Positions 2,332-40,749 of a DNA stretch of 49,337 bases are shown one piece after another (the stretch's first letter is position 1; every line of letters begins with the position of its first letter). The position numbers and the translations under genes are program-made. The notes below the pieces were generated by a model, which saw only the letters and a list, made by a program, of their open reading frames with translations, ran no database searches and was not told the DNA's origin. This stretch comes from Escherichia phage phiD2-2, in the sequence record OR861627.1; one strand, given 5' to 3'.

Positions 2332-3900
2332 TTAACCCATCAGCCGAGGATTAATGAAAACAATATCATCAATCCGGCAAGTGTAGTTCATCTCTTCGAG
2401 CGTGATAAGAAGACTATCGATTCGCTCAGATACTTTCTGTTGACCGTTGAAAGGCGTAACGTTCCGGCACTTTGCAACGATGCTATGAATAGGTGCGCGG
2501 CCTTTGTTTTTCTTCGCGATCTCAGTGATAACATCAATCAGCTTACGAGATTCAGCCTCATCACCAGCATACCCGGCAGCGCTGGCAGACGACAGATAAG
2601 TCCTGGAAAGCTCATTGAAGATCATGATTGCTTCCTGCATTGTTTCAAGGTCAATCTCACGGTTGGAACGGTTCGGTGATTCACCCTCCCAATTCTTGAT
2701 CGTGTGGAGAACTGAAGCAATACGCAAGGCGTGCTTATCGAACTTGCCGAGATGACCGCGTAGCATTGAGTGAGAGTATTTCCCACCTGCGGCGAAATCC
2801 GGTTCCATCGCCTGACGCGCAAGGTTTAATTCACGCATAGCATTACGGCTTACAGAGAGAACAACGTTTTCCTCCTTCATGATGTTGTGAACGAGTCTGT
2901 AATATTTGCTAACCAGTCCTCGATCGACTTCTTTATACAATGCATCACCATTTTCATCACAAAGAATACGAGTACCTAAAAGCGGTTCCTCGCGAACTAA
3001 CAGGAAGCGCTCAGATACACCGATACCTCGTTGGCCTGCGTCCATGATACCTTTGATTGTTTCATCCTGCGCAATTACGCAGATCGAGCCAACCGGGCAA
3101 AGAGACAAGTTGTTGTCCTGATTGGAGCGAGCGACCTCCATATGGTTTTTATCCCACGCCTTAAGAATAAGCTCACTGTTAGATTTCTTATCTGAACCTC
3201 CATACGTAAGACCGAGCAATGTATTGATTGCCGTTGCCTCATCAGAAATTACGGAAAAGTGGCCCTGAACAGCGGCTACTTTCGCAAGACCTTCAGGTGT
3301 AGGATCTGATACAGCAAAAACAATATCAGCCATCTTTTTGATCTTCTCTTCCAGTTTTTCTTTGTCCTCGTATAGTGCCGCAGTCGTGTTTCCTTTAGGA
3401 TCATTCTTGATTTCCTTCTCAACCTGGCGTAGCTGACTGGTTAAACGAATACGTTCCTTTTTGCGCTCTTCATTCAGTCGCTGAATCTCCGCACGCATAG
3501 GTGTAATCGCCGCTGAGTTAATCGCGGACTTACCTGTTGATGGTGGCTGGCTGATTACCATGTAAAGCGCGGTCGGCTGTTCCTCTCCGTGATATTGCAC
3601 CCAAAACTTCCCGAGCATCGCGGCTGAGATGCAACCTATAAAATGAGCATACGCGGATGAAACCGGGAACTGGACTGATTCAGCTTTTGCTTTTGCATAT
3701 TCGAATACCAGGTTATCGCCACCTAACGAAATCAGAGGGAACTTATCGTTGCCGCTATTGATATCGATCGGATCTTGCCAAAATGAAACTGAGTCACCAT
3801 AGCTGTTTTCACGAATTGCGATCGCCACCGGATTAACTCCAGTGCTATTGGCGATCTCAATAATCTGTTGGTAATTCAGTTTTGGCTTAATATTAAACAT
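2332..3900 (-). CDS. P-loop NTPase, DUF3987-like putative replication/helicase-associated protein
   Basis: Walker-A-like PPSTGKS, long coiled-coil insert, acidic VISDEAT Walker-B-like stretch; ATG (MFNIKPK) preceded by AAGGAG. Family assignment is from memory of the architecture. Confidence 0.45.
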   Translation of the reverse strand: MFNIKPKLNYQQIIEIANSTGVNPVAIAIRENSYGDSVSFWQDPIDINSGNDKFPLISLGGDNLVFEYAKAKAESVQFPVSSAYAHFIGCISAAMLGKFWVQYHGEEQPTALYMVISQPPSTGKSAINSAAITPMRAEIQRLNEERKKERIRLTSQLRQVEKEIKNDPKGNTTAALYEDKEKLEEKIKKMADIVFAVSDPTPEGLAKVAAVQGHFSVISDEATAINTLLGLTYGGSDKKSNSELILKAWDKNHMEVARSNQDNNLSLCPVGSICVIAQDETIKGIMDAGQRGIGVSERFLLVREEPLLGTRILCDENGDALYKEVDRGLVSKYYRLVHNIMKEENVVLSVSRNAMRELNLARQAMEPDFAAGGKYSHSMLRGHLGKFDKHALRIASVLHTIKNWEGESPNRSNREIDLETMQEAIMIFNELSRTYLSSASAAGYAGDEAESRKLIDVITEIAKKNKGRAPIHSIVAKCRNVTPFNGQQKVSERIDSLLITLEEMNYTCRIDDIVFINPRLMG

Positions 3901-3972
3901 CACAATAAACTCCTTGGTTGACGGTGTAAATGATACACCGCCAATGGTACACGCGTTTTGCAAAAAGTGCTA
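3901..3972 (-). promoter_or_regulatory. gene-boundary cassette upstream of the DUF3987-like gene
   Basis: TAGCACTTTTTGCAAAAC, hairpin CGGTGTA/TACACCG around TATCAT, CCAAGGAG leader. Confidence 0.5.
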
Positions 3973-3976
3973 TTGG

Positions 3977-4393
3977 TTATAAGTATTTGGCCTCAAAGGT
4001 TGTGCCGTCAGCTATGCTAAAACCGATCTCTTCGCGAAACAATGTCCAACGGCAACCATCCTCATCAAAAATATAACCAGCTACGCCGCCGAGAGCGCGA
4101 CCGCTTTCCACCTGGTAACGCTTGCCAAGTTTGAATGATTTTTTCATCGGATTACGATGGTCAAGCCCGGTGCACTTGAGCGTCTTTGTTTTCAACTCAG
4201 CGAACTTCGCGAAGAAGATTTCATCAGATCCGTGAATCTGTAATTCATCATGCTTTTCAAGTTTTAAATACTTTCCGCATTTTAATTTTACTTCGCGAGT
4301 GCCATCATAGCGCTCACGACCTTTGTACAGGTTGTTTACTTCAAATCCTGTGATTTTATCTGCGGAAGTACATTTAAGTTTGATGGATTTCAT
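3977..4393 (-). CDS. hypothetical protein (138 aa)
   Basis: Track ORF preceded by conserved leader CCAATCAGGAG and a boundary cassette. Confidence 0.6.
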   Translation of the reverse strand: MKSIKLKCTSADKITGFEVNNLYKGRERYDGTREVKLKCGKYLKLEKHDELQIHGSDEIFFAKFAELKTKTLKCTGLDHRNPMKKSFKLGKRYQVESGRALGGVAGYIFDEDGCRWTLFREEIGFSIADGTTFEAKYL

Positions 4394-4473: not shown

Positions 4474-4686
4474 TTACCAGGGAATATAATCGTCGTCGTC
4501 ATTATCACCAGTATCATCGCCTGGCATATCGAAGTCGGGATTATATTCACTTTCTGCGTCCATATCCATATTCCCTAGCGCGTCGTCAAGCGTAATTTCT
4601 TTATATGCAACCTTGATACACCATTCCGCACCAAGCCCGGCATCGAGCGCTGCAAAATAACGAGTCCAGAAATTATCCTGTTCCAT
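4474..4686 (-). CDS. small highly acidic protein (70 aa)
   Basis: GGAG 8 nt upstream of ATG; C-terminal half is strongly acidic (DMDAESEYNPDFDMPGDDTGDNDDDDYIPW). Confidence 0.55.
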   Translation of the reverse strand: MEQDNFWTRYFAALDAGLGAEWCIKVAYKEITLDDALGNMDMDAESEYNPDFDMPGDDTGDNDDDDYIPW

Positions 4687-4689
4687 TAA

Positions 4690-4914
4690 TTAGCTCCATG
4701 AATTAATGTAAATCGAGTTATCCTCAAGCGTTGCGCGAACATCCGCATCTGTTGCATTTATCAGTCGAGATCCCGGTACACTTCCGATAACGCTATTTCC
4801 GTTACGCGTCTTAGTTACCGTCATTGAAATAAAACCGGAAGACTTATCCATCTTGATAACTACACGGCCTTTTGCGTTAAGATGCTTGATGATATTCTCA
4901 ACTTTAATGCTCAT
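4690..4914 (-). CDS. hypothetical protein (74 aa)
   Basis: Track ORF with AGGAA RBS and its own boundary cassette upstream. Confidence 0.55.
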   Translation of the reverse strand: MSIKVENIIKHLNAKGRVVIKMDKSSGFISMTVTKTRNGNSVIGSVPGSRLINATDADVRATLEDNSIYINSWS

Positions 4915-5131: not shown

Positions 5132-5452
5132 TCATTTTTTACCGTCCCAGGTTTGATACGCCGTCACAAGGTTAATGCTATGGTCAAACTCGTCAATGCT
5201 AAGCGAACCTATTCGAACCAGTTCTTTATCATGCTTAATATCAATCATCCGGCTATATGGATGACCTGGCACGTATTTGAACAGTCGCTTGCTGTCAGCA
5301 ATGTCGGCGTTGATTCCATAGAATCGGCCTACTGCCGCCTTCACGCGCTCCATGATGTTTTTTTCGTGGATTGCTGCCGCGTTATTAAGCGCCGCAACCG
5401 TGCTTCCGTTAATCTTCGGTGACTTCGTTGTGATTTTATAAGTGTGGTTCAT
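5132..5452 (-). CDS. hypothetical protein (about 107 aa)
   Basis: Track ORF trimmed to internal ATG (MNHTYK) with GGGGGA RBS, which removes the overlap with the upstream gene. Confidence 0.5.
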   Translation of the reverse strand: MNHTYKITTKSPKINGSTVAALNNAAAIHEKNIMERVKAAVGRFYGINADIADSKRLFKYVPGHPYSRMIDIKHDKELVRIGSLSIDEFDHSINLVTAYQTWDGKK

Positions 5453-5468
5453 TATTCCCCCTAACCAG

Positions 5469-5669
5469 TCAGGATAGCTTTCTCGCTTCATCAATGATAA
5501 CAGGTTCAAGACGCTCAAGTCTAACGCGGAACGTGTTCATAAATCCTTCGTTATTCTTCAGTAGCTCGAATGCGTCTGTTGCCTCAATTGCGCTATTTCC
5601 CATGTAGGCAACTACGCTCTTTTGCGTCCTGCGTGAGATCGCAACCACGCGGTAAATATTATCACTCAT
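5469..5669 (-). CDS. hypothetical protein (about 66 aa)
   Basis: Track ORF trimmed to ATG (MSDNIYRV) with GGAGG 6 nt upstream; ATGAGTGA overlap with upstream stop. Confidence 0.5.
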   Translation of the reverse strand: MSDNIYRVVAISRRTQKSVVAYMGNSAIEATDAFELLKNNEGFMNTFRVRLERLEPVIIDEARKLS

Positions 5670-6495: not shown

Positions 6496-6573
6496 TTTGT
6501 TTTTCCTCAATCTCGTTTCGATGAGGTAATTATGCCAAATCACACCGATCGAGTTTTAACAAAAAATGCTATC
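6496..6573 (-). promoter_or_regulatory. gene-boundary cassette
   Basis: ATAGCATTTTTTGTTAAAA, TATAAT, TACCTCATCGAAACGAG, GAGGAA. Confidence 0.5.
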
Positions 6574-6712
6574 AGCAATCGCTTTGAAAAATCCACGAGG
6601 ATATAAGGAACGTATCAGCTTCGTTTTGGCAGACTTGCCGCCCAGCTTGTTTTGCTGTGCAGAGTACCCGTCAGGCAGGCTTACAGGTTTTCTCTCGGGC
6701 ATGACAAAATCG

Positions 6713-7261
6713 TCAGAGGTCCCAAAGACAAGTTTTCTTCGGGTAAGCATCTCGCGGCGCAATATACATCGGGAACCAGGGGTGTGAGTCATTCTCAGGA
6801 AGATAGCCGCCATACTCCCAGGGATTGAAGGAGTGATTTGGTTTTCTCCACGCAGACGACAGGGCGCTCACCGGATTCTCAATGATGTAAGTCACGCCCA
6901 GGCTATCTCCAATGTTCGCAGCAATCCGGGCACTAGCGACAGCCTTCTCCTGGAATAACGGATCGCGTTCACGCTTGCTGGCAAAGTGTCGCGCACCACT
7001 AACAGCCAGGTCAGTGCACGGCGGGAAAGCCATAATGAAATCCGGCTTGCCATACACGCCAGCGATAGCATCACGTTCGAACGTTTCATCAATGAACACG
7101 TTCACATACTCAATGTTCGGATGCTCCACTCTGGCATTGTACTTTTCGTAATCTCCGTGATCGGCTCCGTCAAAGTTGAAGCACATCACCTTATGACCTT
7201 GCTTAGCCAGTTCATGACCTGCAAGACCGGAACCGTCAAATAGCGACCAGATTAATTTCAT
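6713..7261 (-). CDS. DNA cytosine-C5 methyltransferase-like protein, unusually short (182 aa), possibly frameshifted
   Basis: Motif I-like LFDGSGL, motif IV-like FPPCTDLAVSG (PC dipeptide, Q replaced by T), motif VI-like IIENPV; AAGAGG RBS. Overlapping frame 6556..6813 carries an RRKLVFG stretch that resembles motif VIII. Confidence 0.5.
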   Translation of the reverse strand: MKLIWSLFDGSGLAGHELAKQGHKVMCFNFDGADHGDYEKYNARVEHPNIEYVNVFIDETFERDAIAGVYGKPDFIMAFPPCTDLAVSGARHFASKRERDPLFQEKAVASARIAANIGDSLGVTYIIENPVSALSSAWRKPNHSFNPWEYGGYLPENDSHPWFPMYIAPRDAYPKKTCLWDL

Positions 7262-10281: not shown

Positions 10282-10449
10282 TTGGCAGTATTCAAATGTA
10301 GTGATGACCAGGAAGTTAAAGAGTGCTTTACCGTTGACAAGCCTTATAACGCATCGCTAACCAGCTTCGGGAACATCTCATTGCTTGATGATAATGGCGA
10401 CCCCTGGATATTCGACGAAGACACCGATTGCTTCGAAATTAAAGAATAG
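10282..10449 (+). CDS. possible small acidic protein (about 55 aa), TTG start
   Basis: Hand-translated open frame ending at the TAG inside the 10447 palindrome; no convincing RBS. Confidence 0.25.
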   Translation: MAVFKCSDDQEVKECFTVDKPYNASLTSFGNISLLDDNGDPWIFDEDTDCFEIKE

Positions 10450-14834: not shown

Positions 14835-15044
14835 ATGACGGTATCAACTGATAAGTTTTTCACTTGCACTAAAACTTCTGAAGTATTCGAACTGGTTCAT
14901 ACTGATAATGGTGATTTCATGCATGACGGTTGCGACGTTTTCATTGAAGTGAAAGAAAGCGACTATGACGACGGAGTTTATTACAGCCCGGCAGTTAACA
15001 CGCAGTTTTTTACCCCGATCGAGGAAGATGGAGAAGAGGCATGA
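14835..15044 (+). CDS. hypothetical protein (69 aa)
   Basis: Track ORF with cassette upstream. Confidence 0.5.
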   Translation: MTVSTDKFFTCTKTSEVFELVHTDNGDFMHDGCDVFIEVKESDYDDGVYYSPAVNTQFFTPIEEDGEEA

Positions 15045-40335: not shown

Positions 40336-40749
40336 ATGCATATTATCACTGGAGAGATCCGAAAAGAACCTAAGATTCTTGAACGTAACGGCGGGAATAC
40401 TTATATAATCGAACTGGCAGAGAGCTACAAGCCTCGAGATGGAGATCGAGAATACACCAACTACACATTCTTTTTTAGCGACGGTGGAAAGCCTGGCCTT
40501 GCTGACTGGTATCGTGAAGCATTCCAGGTTGGTCGCGTCGTATCAGTATCATGCGAGACGTTGAAGATCTCATCCCGTGAACACAATGGAACGGTTTACA
40601 ATTCATTGCAGGCCGCTGACTTCCCGAAGTTGGTATTTAGTCAACGAGGACAAAGCAATCAACAACGAGCACCGCAGCAACAACAGCGAACGCAATCACA
40701 GCCACAGCCAAATCCTCAATCAACTTTCGATGATGATATCCCGTTCTAA
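40336..40749 (+). CDS. ssb: single-stranded DNA-binding protein
   Basis: Gln/Pro-rich linker ending in the acidic tip DDDIPF, as in bacterial SSB; 137 aa. Confidence 0.7.
   Translation: MHIITGEIRKEPKILERNGGNTYIIELAESYKPRDGDREYTNYTFFFSDGGKPGLADWYREAFQVGRVVSVSCETLKISSREHNGTVYNSLQAADFPKLVFSQRGQSNQQRAPQQQQRTQSQPQPNPQSTFDDDIPF

What the first reader, a model, noticed from the sequence alone, without database searches (positions are those of the whole stretch)
4474..4686. Small, highly acidic early protein - candidate DNA mimic or anti-defence factor
The 70-aa product ends in a run dominated by Asp/Glu (DMDAESEYNPDFDMPGDDTGDNDDDDYIPW) and is encoded in the leftward early operon with its own RBS. 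Small acidic early proteins are the usual form of DNA-mimic anti-restriction proteins (Ocr and ArdA type) and of some nucleoid-protein inhibitors.
Basis: inference. Interest (0 to 1): 0.6.

Follow-up and report, generated by a model that had tools for sequence, protein, structure and literature searches.

The report
Small phage protein with SSB-like tail
This 70-residue acidic protein of a T1-like phage is real and conserved. It does not look like a DNA-mimic anti-restriction protein; instead it carries, on a floppy acidic tail, a copy of the short C-terminal "docking peptide" through which bacterial SSB recruits replication and repair enzymes, so it may be a decoy or adaptor for that network.

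Summary
The ORF (4474..4686, minus strand, 70 aa, net charge -17) is real, coding and under purifying selection. The window is a T1-like phage (Tunavirus); the T1 orthologue is ST6. The Ocr/ArdA DNA-mimic reading is not supported. There is no sequence or fold similarity, and only residues 6-36 are predicted to fold (three short helices). Relatives replace the acidic run with a Cys knuckle. BASEL phages carrying the gene are restricted by type I and type III systems. What the family conserves is a ~45-residue N-terminal module plus a net-acidic tail ending exactly at the C-terminus in [ILVMF]-P-[FW]. Here the ending is DDDDYIPW; in most representatives it is IPF. E. coli SSB and this phage's own SSB end DDDIPF. 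The tip shows 38 synonymous and 0 non-synonymous differences. About 0.1% of background ORFs end this way. Thirteen genuine bacterial SSBs end DDDIPW. The gene is accessory: it is absent from one otherwise syntenic relative. Best explanation (confidence about 0.4, inferred): a free-standing SSB-tail mimic that docks into SSB-tip pockets of host or phage DNA-metabolism proteins. The target is unknown and binding is untested.

The parts
4474..4686 (-). Complete ORF (70 aa plus stop). Orthologue of T1 ST6, vB_EcoS_SH2 gp71 and LeonhardEuler bas13_0048.
   Evidence: phrog_9085 at E 7e-45; purifying selection
4694..4697 (-). Shine-Dalgarno GGAG, 7 nt upstream of the ATG. The upstream gene's stop codon is at 4690..4692.
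   Evidence: read directly from the sequence
4549..4686 (-). Conserved N-terminal module (aa 1-46). Predicted helices at aa 6-15, 20-27 and 33-36, then the invariant LG-MDMD-ES stretch. Family core: AGLNxEWAxKVAxxExTLxEALGDMDMDxES.
   Evidence: alignments A1-A3; AF2 pLDDT about 77; pN/pS 0.09; found in only 38 representatives among 1.8e9 proteins
4489..4548 (-). Acidic, probably disordered tail (aa 47-66: EYNPDFDMPGDDTGDNDDDD). Includes the semi-conserved [FY]-[ND]-P-[ND]-F stretch.
   Evidence: pLDDT 53-56; indels and substitutions among close relatives; pN/pS 0.27; replaced by or combined with a 4-Cys knuckle in relatives
4477..4488 (-). C-terminal tip Y-I-P-W followed directly by the stop codon: the SSB-Ct-like docking motif.
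   Evidence: nearly invariant in the Tunavirus clade; 38 synonymous and 0 non-synonymous differences; 145 of 165 family members end in hydrophobic-P-[FW], PFW or SF; background 4 of 3721 ORFs
40729..40746 (+). Comparator: the last six codons (DDDIPF) of the phage's own SSB gene (40336..40749). This is the only other reading frame in the window that ends in [ILVMF]-P-[FW].
4690..4914 (-). Upstream, closely packed 74-aa gene (phrog_4344). It is a conserved neighbour in 4 of 6 contexts examined.
2332..4393 (-). Downstream conserved neighbours: the phrog_2684 protein (3977..4393) and the DUF3987 putative helicase (2332..3963).

Best explanation
The gene encodes an accessory protein with two parts. 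The first is a conserved ~45-residue helical N-terminal module of unknown partner. The second is a flexible, net-acidic tail that ends, at the free C-terminus, in a hydrophobic-Pro-aromatic tip (DDDDYIPW here, IPF in most representatives of the family). This tip copies the defining C-terminal peptide of bacterial SSB (DDDIPF, the SSB-Ct). SSB uses that peptide to recruit ExoI, RecQ, PriA, RecG, RecO, DnaG and the chi subunit of Pol III. I infer that the tail inserts its terminal aromatic residue and carboxylate into an SSB-Ct-type pocket (hydrophobic pocket plus basic lip and ridge) of one or more SSB-interacting proteins, host or phage. The N-terminal module would supply specificity, avidity (oligomerisation) or a second binding partner. 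The outcome would be either competitive displacement of SSB from a target (a decoy or inhibitor, for example shielding phage ssDNA ends from ExoI/RecJ/RecQ or disabling host restart and repair) or recruitment of a host factor (an adaptor). Shown: the gene is real, the architecture, conservation of the tip, its rarity by chance, that Trp is a natural SSB tip residue, and that the gene is accessory. Inferred: that the tip engages an SSB-Ct pocket, the identity of the target, and whether the protein acts as decoy or adaptor.
For: 1. Tip conservation. 145 of 165 family members and 25 of 34 representatives at 50% identity end exactly at the C-terminus in [ILVMFE]-P-[FW] (or PFW/SF), although the preceding tails are otherwise unalignable (acidic, Cys-knuckle or both). 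Examples: KFDDGIPF, FDFDQLPF, DYDDFIPW, GDEIPW, KDEIPF.
2. Selection. The tip has 38 synonymous and 0 non-synonymous differences in the Tunavirus clade. The tip's pN/pS is 0.07 in the knuckle clade. Pro is invariant in A3.
3. Not chance. Only 2 of 549 six-frame segments in the window end this way, the phage SSB (DDDIPF) and this ORF. In 0.86 Mb of unrelated bacterial DNA, 4 of 3721 ORFs do, and none also has an acidic residue at -4 to -6.
4. All tails are net negative, from -3 to -20. The tail has low AF2 confidence, consistent with disorder.
5. The Trp ending is compatible with SSB function. 13 ORFs ending DDDIPW in a genome scan are genuine SSB homologues, with E from 2e-6 to 2e-68 against the E. 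coli SSB OB domain.
6. Published definition of SSB-Ct recognition: the C-terminal Phe sits in a hydrophobic pocket, the alpha-carboxylate on a basic lip, and the Asp residues on a basic ridge. Pro to Ser (ssb-113) and deletion of the Phe abolish binding (PMC10164576; PMC3632105).
7. Biological fit. T1-like phages have no DNA polymerase and rely on host replication enzymes (PMC11447400; annotation). They encode an SSB with a canonical tip. The gene lies in a conserved string ending in the DUF3987 helicase. The long Ackermannviridae version lies beside a DNA polymerase gene.
8. Accessory status fits a modulator rather than a core replisome part. The gene is absent from RCIP0042, which has the same synteny, and from Pectobacterium and Vibrio relatives that carry the helicase.
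Against: - The resemblance rests on a motif of 3-6 residues, and no binding was tested.
- In the largest clade (Tlsvirus-like) the tip is ...C-K-R-C-F-P-F. There basic, not acidic, residues precede it and a probable zinc knuckle abuts it, unlike the flexible acidic SSB tip.
- Three members end IPFW, which shifts the register of the carboxylate.
- In the window protein a Tyr, not Asp, sits at -4.
- A few short members (P0125-P0130) and all long members (143-309 aa) lack the tip, so the N-terminal module functions without it.
- A soluble SSB-Ct competitor would also compete with the phage's own SSB, which argues for a specific rather than a general target.
- AF2 could not show whether the tip is free in knuckle-type relatives (pLDDT 51-61).
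Confidence: 0.4

Rival explanations
1. The C-terminal tip is a docking peptide for a phage-encoded partner unrelated to SSB-Ct pockets, for example the neighbouring phrog_4344 or phrog_2684 proteins or the DUF3987 helicase. On this reading the protein is a small assembly or regulatory subunit of the phage replication module.
For: Conserved synteny with phrog_4344, phrog_2684 and the DUF3987 helicase across distant relatives. Close packing with the upstream gene. The long homologue lies next to a DNA polymerase gene in Ackermannviridae.
Against: The gene is missing from relatives that keep the helicase and its neighbours (RCIP0042, Amona, a Vibrio phage). The helicase occurs in 918 phage records against at least 459 for this gene. 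This reading does not explain why the tip copies the SSB tip so closely.
Confidence: 0.2
2. The acidic, aromatic-tipped tail acts as a nucleic-acid (ssDNA) surrogate. It occupies the DNA-binding cleft of an OB-fold or other nucleic-acid-binding protein (host or phage SSB, a nuclease, a nucleoid protein), as the acidic tails of T7 gp2.5 and T4 gp32 do in cis. This is the nearest surviving form of the first reader's idea.
For: Extreme acidity. All family tails are net negative. The tail is predicted to be disordered. From established knowledge, marked as such: the acidic C-terminal tail of T7 gp2.5 competes with ssDNA for its own binding surface.
Against: Selection is strongest on the terminal tripeptide and weakest on the acidic stretch (pN/pS 0 against 0.27). 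In many relatives the tail is mostly a Cys knuckle with a net charge of only -3 to -8. Strict placement of the motif at the free C-terminus is unexplained by simple charge mimicry.
Confidence: 0.12
3. The family is basically a small zinc-knuckle regulator, and the hydrophobic-Pro-Phe ending is a structural cap of the knuckle. The Tunavirus form has lost the knuckle and keeps a vestigial tip, so function resides in the N-terminal module alone.
For: Most representatives have CxC-x5-8-CxxC directly before the tip. The knuckle is under very strong constraint (pN/pS 0.04). Long homologues work without the tip.
Against: Knuckle-free lineages arose more than once (Tunavirus, P0124, P0136, P0140, P0144, P0153, P0160) and all keep the tip. 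In the Tunavirus clade the tip shows no amino-acid change despite 38 synonymous differences, which is not vestigial behaviour.
Confidence: 0.1
4. One reading: an Ocr/ArdA-type double-stranded-DNA mimic that inhibits type I or type III restriction enzymes (or BREX).
For: Small size, net charge -17 and a position among presumptive early genes.
Against: No Pfam match. No compact predicted fold and no structural neighbour. The acidic run is not conserved. Gene-bearing phages Bas12 and Bas13 are restricted 50- to 10,000-fold by EcoKI, EcoPI and EcoCFT_II. Drexlerviridae are described as generally very RM-sensitive.
Confidence: 0.04

Closest known systems
C-terminal tip of bacterial SSB (SSB-Ct, ...DFDDDIPF), the hub peptide for SSB-interacting proteins
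   Same: An acidic stretch followed by hydrophobic-Pro-aromatic at the free C-terminus, at the end of a flexible tail. Pro and the terminal aromatic residue are under the strongest constraint. IPF is the commonest tip in the family, and IPW also occurs in genuine SSBs.
   Different: There is no OB fold and no ssDNA-binding domain; the scaffold is a ~45-residue helical module. There is no Gly/Pro/Gln-rich linker. Many relatives place a Cys knuckle directly before the tip, and some have basic residues there. Binding to any SSB partner is untested.
T7 Ocr (gp0.3) and ArdA DNA-mimic anti-restriction proteins
   Same: Small, strongly acidic, and encoded among early phage or plasmid-leading-region genes.
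   Different: From established knowledge, Ocr and ArdA are compact, rigid dimers whose surface carboxylates mimic B-form DNA. This protein has no profile match and only a 30-residue helical core with a floppy tail. Phages carrying it are restricted by type I and III systems.
Acidic C-terminal tails of T7 gp2.5 and gp4 (terminal Phe), which dock on T7 DNA polymerase/thioredoxin (established knowledge; context in PMC10359462)
   Same: The principle of an acidic, disordered tail with a C-terminal aromatic residue used as a portable docking element in a replisome.
   Different: Those tails belong to an SSB and a helicase-primase that act on their own phage polymerase. T1-like phages have no polymerase, and here the tail sits on a tiny stand-alone protein.
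Bas52_0087, a phage SSB-like protein with an FDDDIPF tip that is needed to trigger the DRT10 defence system (bioRxiv 10.64898/2026.04.29.721553)
   Same: A phage protein carrying a copy of the host SSB tip, proposed to interface with host ssDNA-processing enzymes such as ExoI/SbcB.
   Different: Bas52_0087 has two OB folds and is an SSB-type protein of more than 350 residues. The present protein has no OB fold and is unrelated in sequence.
Small acidic phage inhibitors of host DNA enzymes, e.g. T7 gp5.9 (RecBCD inhibitor; PMC9836394)
   Same: A very small, acidic, early phage protein that targets host DNA-end processing.
   Different: gp5.9 is described as a folded DNA mimic that blocks the RecBCD DNA-binding site. 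There is no sequence relation, and no C-terminal hydrophobic-Pro-aromatic motif is known for it.

Membership tests
Ocr / ArdA DNA-mimic anti-restriction proteins | Sequence or profile similarity to the Ocr or ArdA families | tested here: not met
   No Pfam-A family matches at E<=0.1. The PHROG matches have unknown function only.
Ocr / ArdA DNA-mimic anti-restriction proteins | A compact, rigid fold displaying carboxylates in a DNA-like array | tested here: not met
Ocr / ArdA DNA-mimic anti-restriction proteins | Large net negative charge | tested here: met
   Net -17 over 70 aa, pI 4.05. It is the most acidic ORF in the window.
Ocr / ArdA DNA-mimic anti-restriction proteins | Protects the phage from type I (and type III) restriction | tested here: not met
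   Published EOPs for wild-type phages carrying the gene. Bas12: 0.005-0.02 on EcoKI (2 sites) and about 0.004-0.008 on EcoPI. Bas13: 1e-4 to 3e-3 on EcoCFT_II and EcoPI. No knock-out comparison is available.
SSB-Ct-type C-terminal docking peptide (a functional class, not a homologous family) | The motif lies at the extreme C-terminus with a free alpha-carboxylate | tested here: met
   The stop codon follows W70 directly. 141 of 165 members end xP[FW]; three more end PFW.
SSB-Ct-type C-terminal docking peptide (a functional class, not a homologous family) | Terminal aromatic residue (Phe in E. coli SSB) | tested here: met
   Trp here and Phe in most relatives. 13 genuine SSB homologues end DDDIPW, so Trp is a natural variant. 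The literature calls Phe 'invariant', so this is a qualified pass.
SSB-Ct-type C-terminal docking peptide (a functional class, not a homologous family) | Penultimate Pro and a hydrophobic residue at -3 | tested here: met
   I-P here. Pro is invariant in A3. No non-synonymous change in YIPW.
SSB-Ct-type C-terminal docking peptide (a functional class, not a homologous family) | Acidic residues immediately upstream (-4 to -6) | tested here: inconclusive
   Window protein: D D D D Y I P W, with Asp at -5 to -8 and Tyr at -4. Many relatives have D/E at -4 or -5 (DEIPF, DCIPF, ECIPF). The Tlsvirus-type clade has K-R-C before FPF.
SSB-Ct-type C-terminal docking peptide (a functional class, not a homologous family) | Presented on a flexible, disordered tail | tested here: inconclusive
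   Low AF2 confidence for the tail of the window protein. The knuckle-type relative is also low-confidence, so whether its tip is free is not resolved.
SSB-Ct-type C-terminal docking peptide (a functional class, not a homologous family) | Binds the hydrophobic pocket, basic lip and basic ridge of SSB-interacting proteins | not testable with these tools
   Needs binding assays or complex prediction. Only single-chain prediction was available.
Bacterial/phage SSB (OB-fold ssDNA-binding protein) | OB-fold ssDNA-binding domain | tested here: not met
   No Pfam SSB match. The predicted N-terminal module is all-helical. The phage's real SSB is a separate gene at 40336..40749.

The most novel reading that the evidence does not exclude
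T1-like phages encode a stand-alone mimic of the SSB C-terminal hub peptide: a non-OB-fold protein whose only SSB-like feature is the acidic ...IP[FW]-COOH tip. It would plug the SSB-binding pocket of a specific host enzyme (for example ExoI, RecQ/RecJ, PriA or the chi subunit of Pol III). By doing so it would rewire the host SSB interactome in favour of phage replication and recombination, or blunt a defence that depends on it. As far as my literature searches show, this would be the first described viral short-linear-motif mimic of the SSB-Ct.
Probability: 0.35. Interest if true: 0.75.

Novelty: new variant of a known kind. Interest (0 to 1): 0.55.

Why it matters
The SSB C-terminal tip is the central docking handle of bacterial genome maintenance. 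At least 17 enzymes use it, and it is an antibiotic target. Phage SSB-type proteins have also recently been linked to the triggering of defence systems such as Retron-Eco8, Hachiman and DRT10. A phage protein that presents this handle without any DNA-binding domain would be a natural, evolved competitor of the SSB interactome. It would be a new host-takeover or anti-defence strategy, a ready-made tool for dissecting which SSB partners matter during infection, and a template for peptide inhibitors. The claim can be tested directly with peptides and point mutants. It would also give a function to a family found in at least 459 sequenced phage genomes, mostly T1-like (Drexlerviridae-type) siphophages, including phage T1 itself (ST6). 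That family is currently annotated as hypothetical, or wrongly as 'cytosine DNA methylase'.

Tried and rejected
- Pfam scan of the protein and its neighbours: nothing for the target.
- Pfam scan of the long homologues (143-309 aa), to learn the N-domain's function from fusion partners: no significant domains.
- PDB sequence search with the family profile: only a chance hit to a designed protein, E 4.8.
- A second AF2 run on a knuckle-type relative with a 53-sequence alignment, to see whether the tip packs on the knuckle: confidence too low to tell.
- Tip-host covariation test (do LPF-tipped members come from hosts whose SSB ends LPF?): not possible. The LPF/VPF/EPF members sit on short metagenomic contigs. 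tblastn with them finds only phages of Enterobacterales, whose SSBs end IPF.
- Literature searches for a described phage SSB-tail mimic or decoy found none. The nearest is an OB-fold SSB-like protein of Bas52.
- A search for T1 or Drexlerviridae transcript-timing data to verify 'early' found none usable.
- Considered and rejected as explanations of the tip: a beta-clamp-binding motif (no Q-x-x-L-x-F pattern) and ssrA/ClpX-type degrons (no similarity). Both judgements rest on my own knowledge of those motifs.

Full report
**What the window is.** A 1.7-kb stretch around the finding is 99.9% identical to Escherichia phage vB_EcoS_SH2 and 92-97% identical to many Escherichia and Shigella T1-like phages (Tunavirus, Drexlerviridae). 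Annotation of the related BASEL phage LeonhardEuler shows the usual T1 layout. It includes an SSB, a RecE-like exonuclease, a recombinase, a primase and two helicases, but no DNA polymerase. The TLS reannotation paper likewise states that T1 and TLS have no apparent DNA polymerase gene and probably use host enzymes, and that infection degrades the host genome (PMC11447400).

**The observation.** A GGAG lies 7 nt before the ATG, and the upstream 74-aa gene stops 3 nt before it. Net charge is -17 and pI is 4.05, with -13 in residues 37-70. It is the most acidic of 77 non-overlapping ORFs in the window. It is a genuine gene. It is identical to SH2 gp71, orthologous to T1 ST6, and matches phrog_9085 at E 7e-45. 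tblastn detects it in at least 459 phage records. Codon analysis of 14 distinct Tunavirus alleles gives pN/pS of 0.09 for the N-terminal 46 codons, 0.27 for the acidic tail and 0.00 for the last four codons (38 synonymous and 0 non-synonymous differences). Only the word 'early' remains an inference from position.

**Anatomy of the family.** Close relatives keep YIPW almost invariant while the acidic spacer drifts and has indels. More distant relatives (Tlsvirus, Kyungwonvirus, Klebsiella phages) share the N-terminal ~45 residues. They replace the acidic run with a CxC-x5-8-CxxC knuckle, yet still end FPF, MPF, IPF or IPFW. An exhaustive profile search of 1.8 billion representative proteins found only 38 representatives, so the family is small and phage-restricted. 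Its core is AGLNxEWAxKVAxxExTLxEALGDMDMDxES. Tails beyond the core are unalignable, but they end KFDDGIPF, FDFDQLPF, DYDDFIPW, GDEIPW, KDEIPF, NNHLPF and so on. Overall 145 of 165 collected members, and 25 of 34 representatives at 50% identity, end in hydrophobic-Pro-[FW] (or PFW/SF). Every tail is net negative. Longer proteins (143-309 aa) carry the core internally and lack the tip. The ~180-aa form (phrog_4823) is typical of Vi1-like Ackermannviridae, where it lies beside the DNA polymerase gene. No Pfam domain was found in any of them.

**The SSB connection.** E. coli SSB ends DDDIPF. This amphipathic tip is the docking site for more than a dozen genome-maintenance proteins. The terminal Phe enters a hydrophobic pocket, the alpha-carboxylate sits on a basic lip, and the Asp residues lie on a basic ridge. 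Pro to Ser (ssb-113) or deletion of the Phe abolishes binding (PMC10164576; PMC3632105).

The phage's own SSB (40336..40749) ends TFDDDIPF, as do three sampled SSBs of other Drexlerviridae phages. In the whole window, only two of 549 six-frame segments of at least 40 aa end in [ILVMF]-P-[FW]: that SSB and the finding. In 0.86 Mb of unrelated bacterial DNA the rate is 4 of 3721 ORFs, and none of those also has an acidic residue at -4 to -6.

The obvious objection is that the SSB Phe is called 'invariant' while this protein ends in Trp. I tested this by scanning 185,579 species genomes for DDDIPW-stop. Trp is therefore a natural SSB tip residue. The same scan also showed DDDIPW on non-SSB scaffolds such as a cyanobacterial helicase-like family, so the tip seems portable.

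**Core or accessory?** The gene sits in a conserved string: phrog_4344, this gene, (a Dcm-like methylase in some phages), phrog_2684, then the DUF3987 helicase. However, Klebsiella phage RCIP0042 has the same synteny without the gene. Pectobacterium and Vibrio relatives with the helicase also lack it. The helicase is found in 918 phage records, against at least 459 for this gene. It is therefore an accessory modulator, not an obligate helicase cofactor.

Beyond the lack of homology and of a compact fold, published phenotypes speak directly to it. [quoted passage not shown] Their raw data cover two gene-bearing phages.
- Bas12 BrunoManser (homologue P0060, ending GEDYIPW) plates at EOP 0.005-0.02 on EcoKI despite having only two sites, at about 0.004-0.008 on EcoPI, and at 0.05-0.24 on EcoCFT_II.
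- Bas13 LeonhardEuler (protein about 90% identical to the window's) has no type I sites. It plates at 1e-4 to 1.4e-3 on EcoCFT_II and 3e-4 to 3e-3 on EcoPI.

These are wild-type phages, not knock-out comparisons. Even so, an Ocr-like activity would not leave a two-site genome restricted about 100-fold.

**Best explanation and rivals.** I propose that the protein is a free-standing carrier of an SSB-Ct-type docking peptide. A small helical module would provide specificity, avidity or a second partner. The acidic flexible tail would insert its IPW-COOH end into an SSB-tip pocket of a host or phage DNA-metabolism protein, acting as decoy or adaptor. The architecture, conservation, statistics and accessory status are shown. 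Pocket binding, the target and the direction of the effect are inferred. Confidence is about 0.4.

Points against:
- The motif is short.
- The Tlsvirus-type clade has K-R-C-F-P-F, with a probable zinc knuckle, instead of an acidic flexible approach.
- Some members end IPFW.
- Some members lack the tip.
- A general competitor would also interfere with the phage's own SSB.

Rivals:
- The tip docks on a phage partner unrelated to SSB pockets (0.2).
- The tip is a structural cap of an ancestral knuckle and is vestigial in Tunavirus (0.1). This is contradicted by the absolute constraint on YIPW and by repeated knuckle loss with the tip retained.
- An Ocr/ArdA-type anti-restriction protein (0.04).

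**Comparison with what is known.** Five literature searches found no described phage protein that mimics the SSB tail without being an SSB. The nearest published case is Bas52_0087. It is an OB-fold SSB-like protein with an FDDDIPF tip that is required to trigger DRT10 and is discussed in connection with ExoI/SbcB. Phage SSB-type proteins also trigger Retron-Eco8 and Hachiman. The finding is best filed as a new variant of a known kind: SSB-Ct-mediated docking, here on a novel non-OB scaffold. The membership features I could test are mostly met, and the decisive one, pocket binding, is not testable with these tools.

**Verdict.** The DNA-mimic anti-restriction interpretation is largely refuted. 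A more specific and testable hypothesis replaces it. Interest is 0.55: the idea is attractive and cheap to test, but it currently rests on motif-level evidence.

Noticed in passing
window 6556..7261 (minus strand), frameshift near 6723: The Dcm-like C5-cytosine methyltransferase is split into two ORFs (6713..7261, 182 aa, and 6556..6813, 85 aa). The cause is a 1-nt insertion relative to LeonhardEuler bas13_0055, which has one 234-aa ORF. It is a pseudogene, a sequencing error or a programmed frameshift.
   Followed up: partly
L021, L027, L040, L104, L082, L119, L116, L015, L032, L068, L109, L047, L062 (genome contigs): Thirteen genuine bacterial SSB homologues end DDDIPW instead of DDDIPF (Orbaceae, Betaproteobacteria, Methylibium, Rhodoferax, Novosphingobium, Hahella, Clostridia and others). 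The 'invariant' terminal Phe of SSB is therefore not invariant.
   Followed up: partly
L018, L019, L023, L024, L025, L029 and 15 more; L020, L036, L067, L100, L118, L120; L026; L017: Non-SSB proteins also end DDDIPW. One is a family of 21 cyanobacterial (Microcoleus/Oscillatoriales) ~440-aa helicase-like proteins ending WGDDDDIPW. Another is a 7-member ~369-aa family in Stenotrophomonas/Luteimonas. There are several singletons. SSB-type tips may be a portable module on other DNA-metabolism proteins.
   Followed up: no
window 14835..15044 (+) and 10282..10449 (+): Two further small, strongly acidic ORFs of unknown function lie in the rightward gene block: 69 aa, net -14, phrog_10456; and 55 aa, net -10, phrog_11551. 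Neither has the Pro-aromatic tip.
   Followed up: partly
window 5132..5518 (minus strand): ORF-listing runs a 128-aa ORF here (phrog_10555; annotated as 106 aa in LeonhardEuler). Stokar-Avihail et al. report that a 128-aa protein of unknown function from phage SECphi27 triggers Mokosh type I. I did not check whether these are the same gene.
   Followed up: no
L176 5001..5558 (Salmonella phage Marshall, Ackermannviridae); P0164, P0149, P0154, P0162: The conserved core of this family also occurs inside ~140-180-aa proteins of Vi1-like phages (phrog_4823, 253 phage records). These have a different conserved C-terminus (PPLEVLMAGGWxxWEYQNEKNAWLDSR) and lie next to the DNA polymerase gene.
   Followed up: partly
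L148 977..1183 (Shigella phage vB_SsoS_008; P0063): In this phage the upstream phrog_4344 gene and the N-terminal domain of the target are read as one 98-aa ORF that stops after ...GNMDMD. This is an apparent frameshift or fusion that removes the acidic tail and tip.
   Followed up: no
P0116 (Pseudomonas phage Motto), H41, H42, H50, H55, H58 and others: Several database records label members of this 70-80-aa family 'putative cytosine DNA methylase'. This is probably an annotation carried over from the adjacent Dcm-like gene. The proteins have no methylase domain.
   Followed up: no
L177 1586..2125 (phage T1 ST8): T1 itself has an HNH endonuclease gene inserted between ST7 (phrog_2684) and the DUF3987 helicase. 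The window has no such gene there.
   Followed up: no
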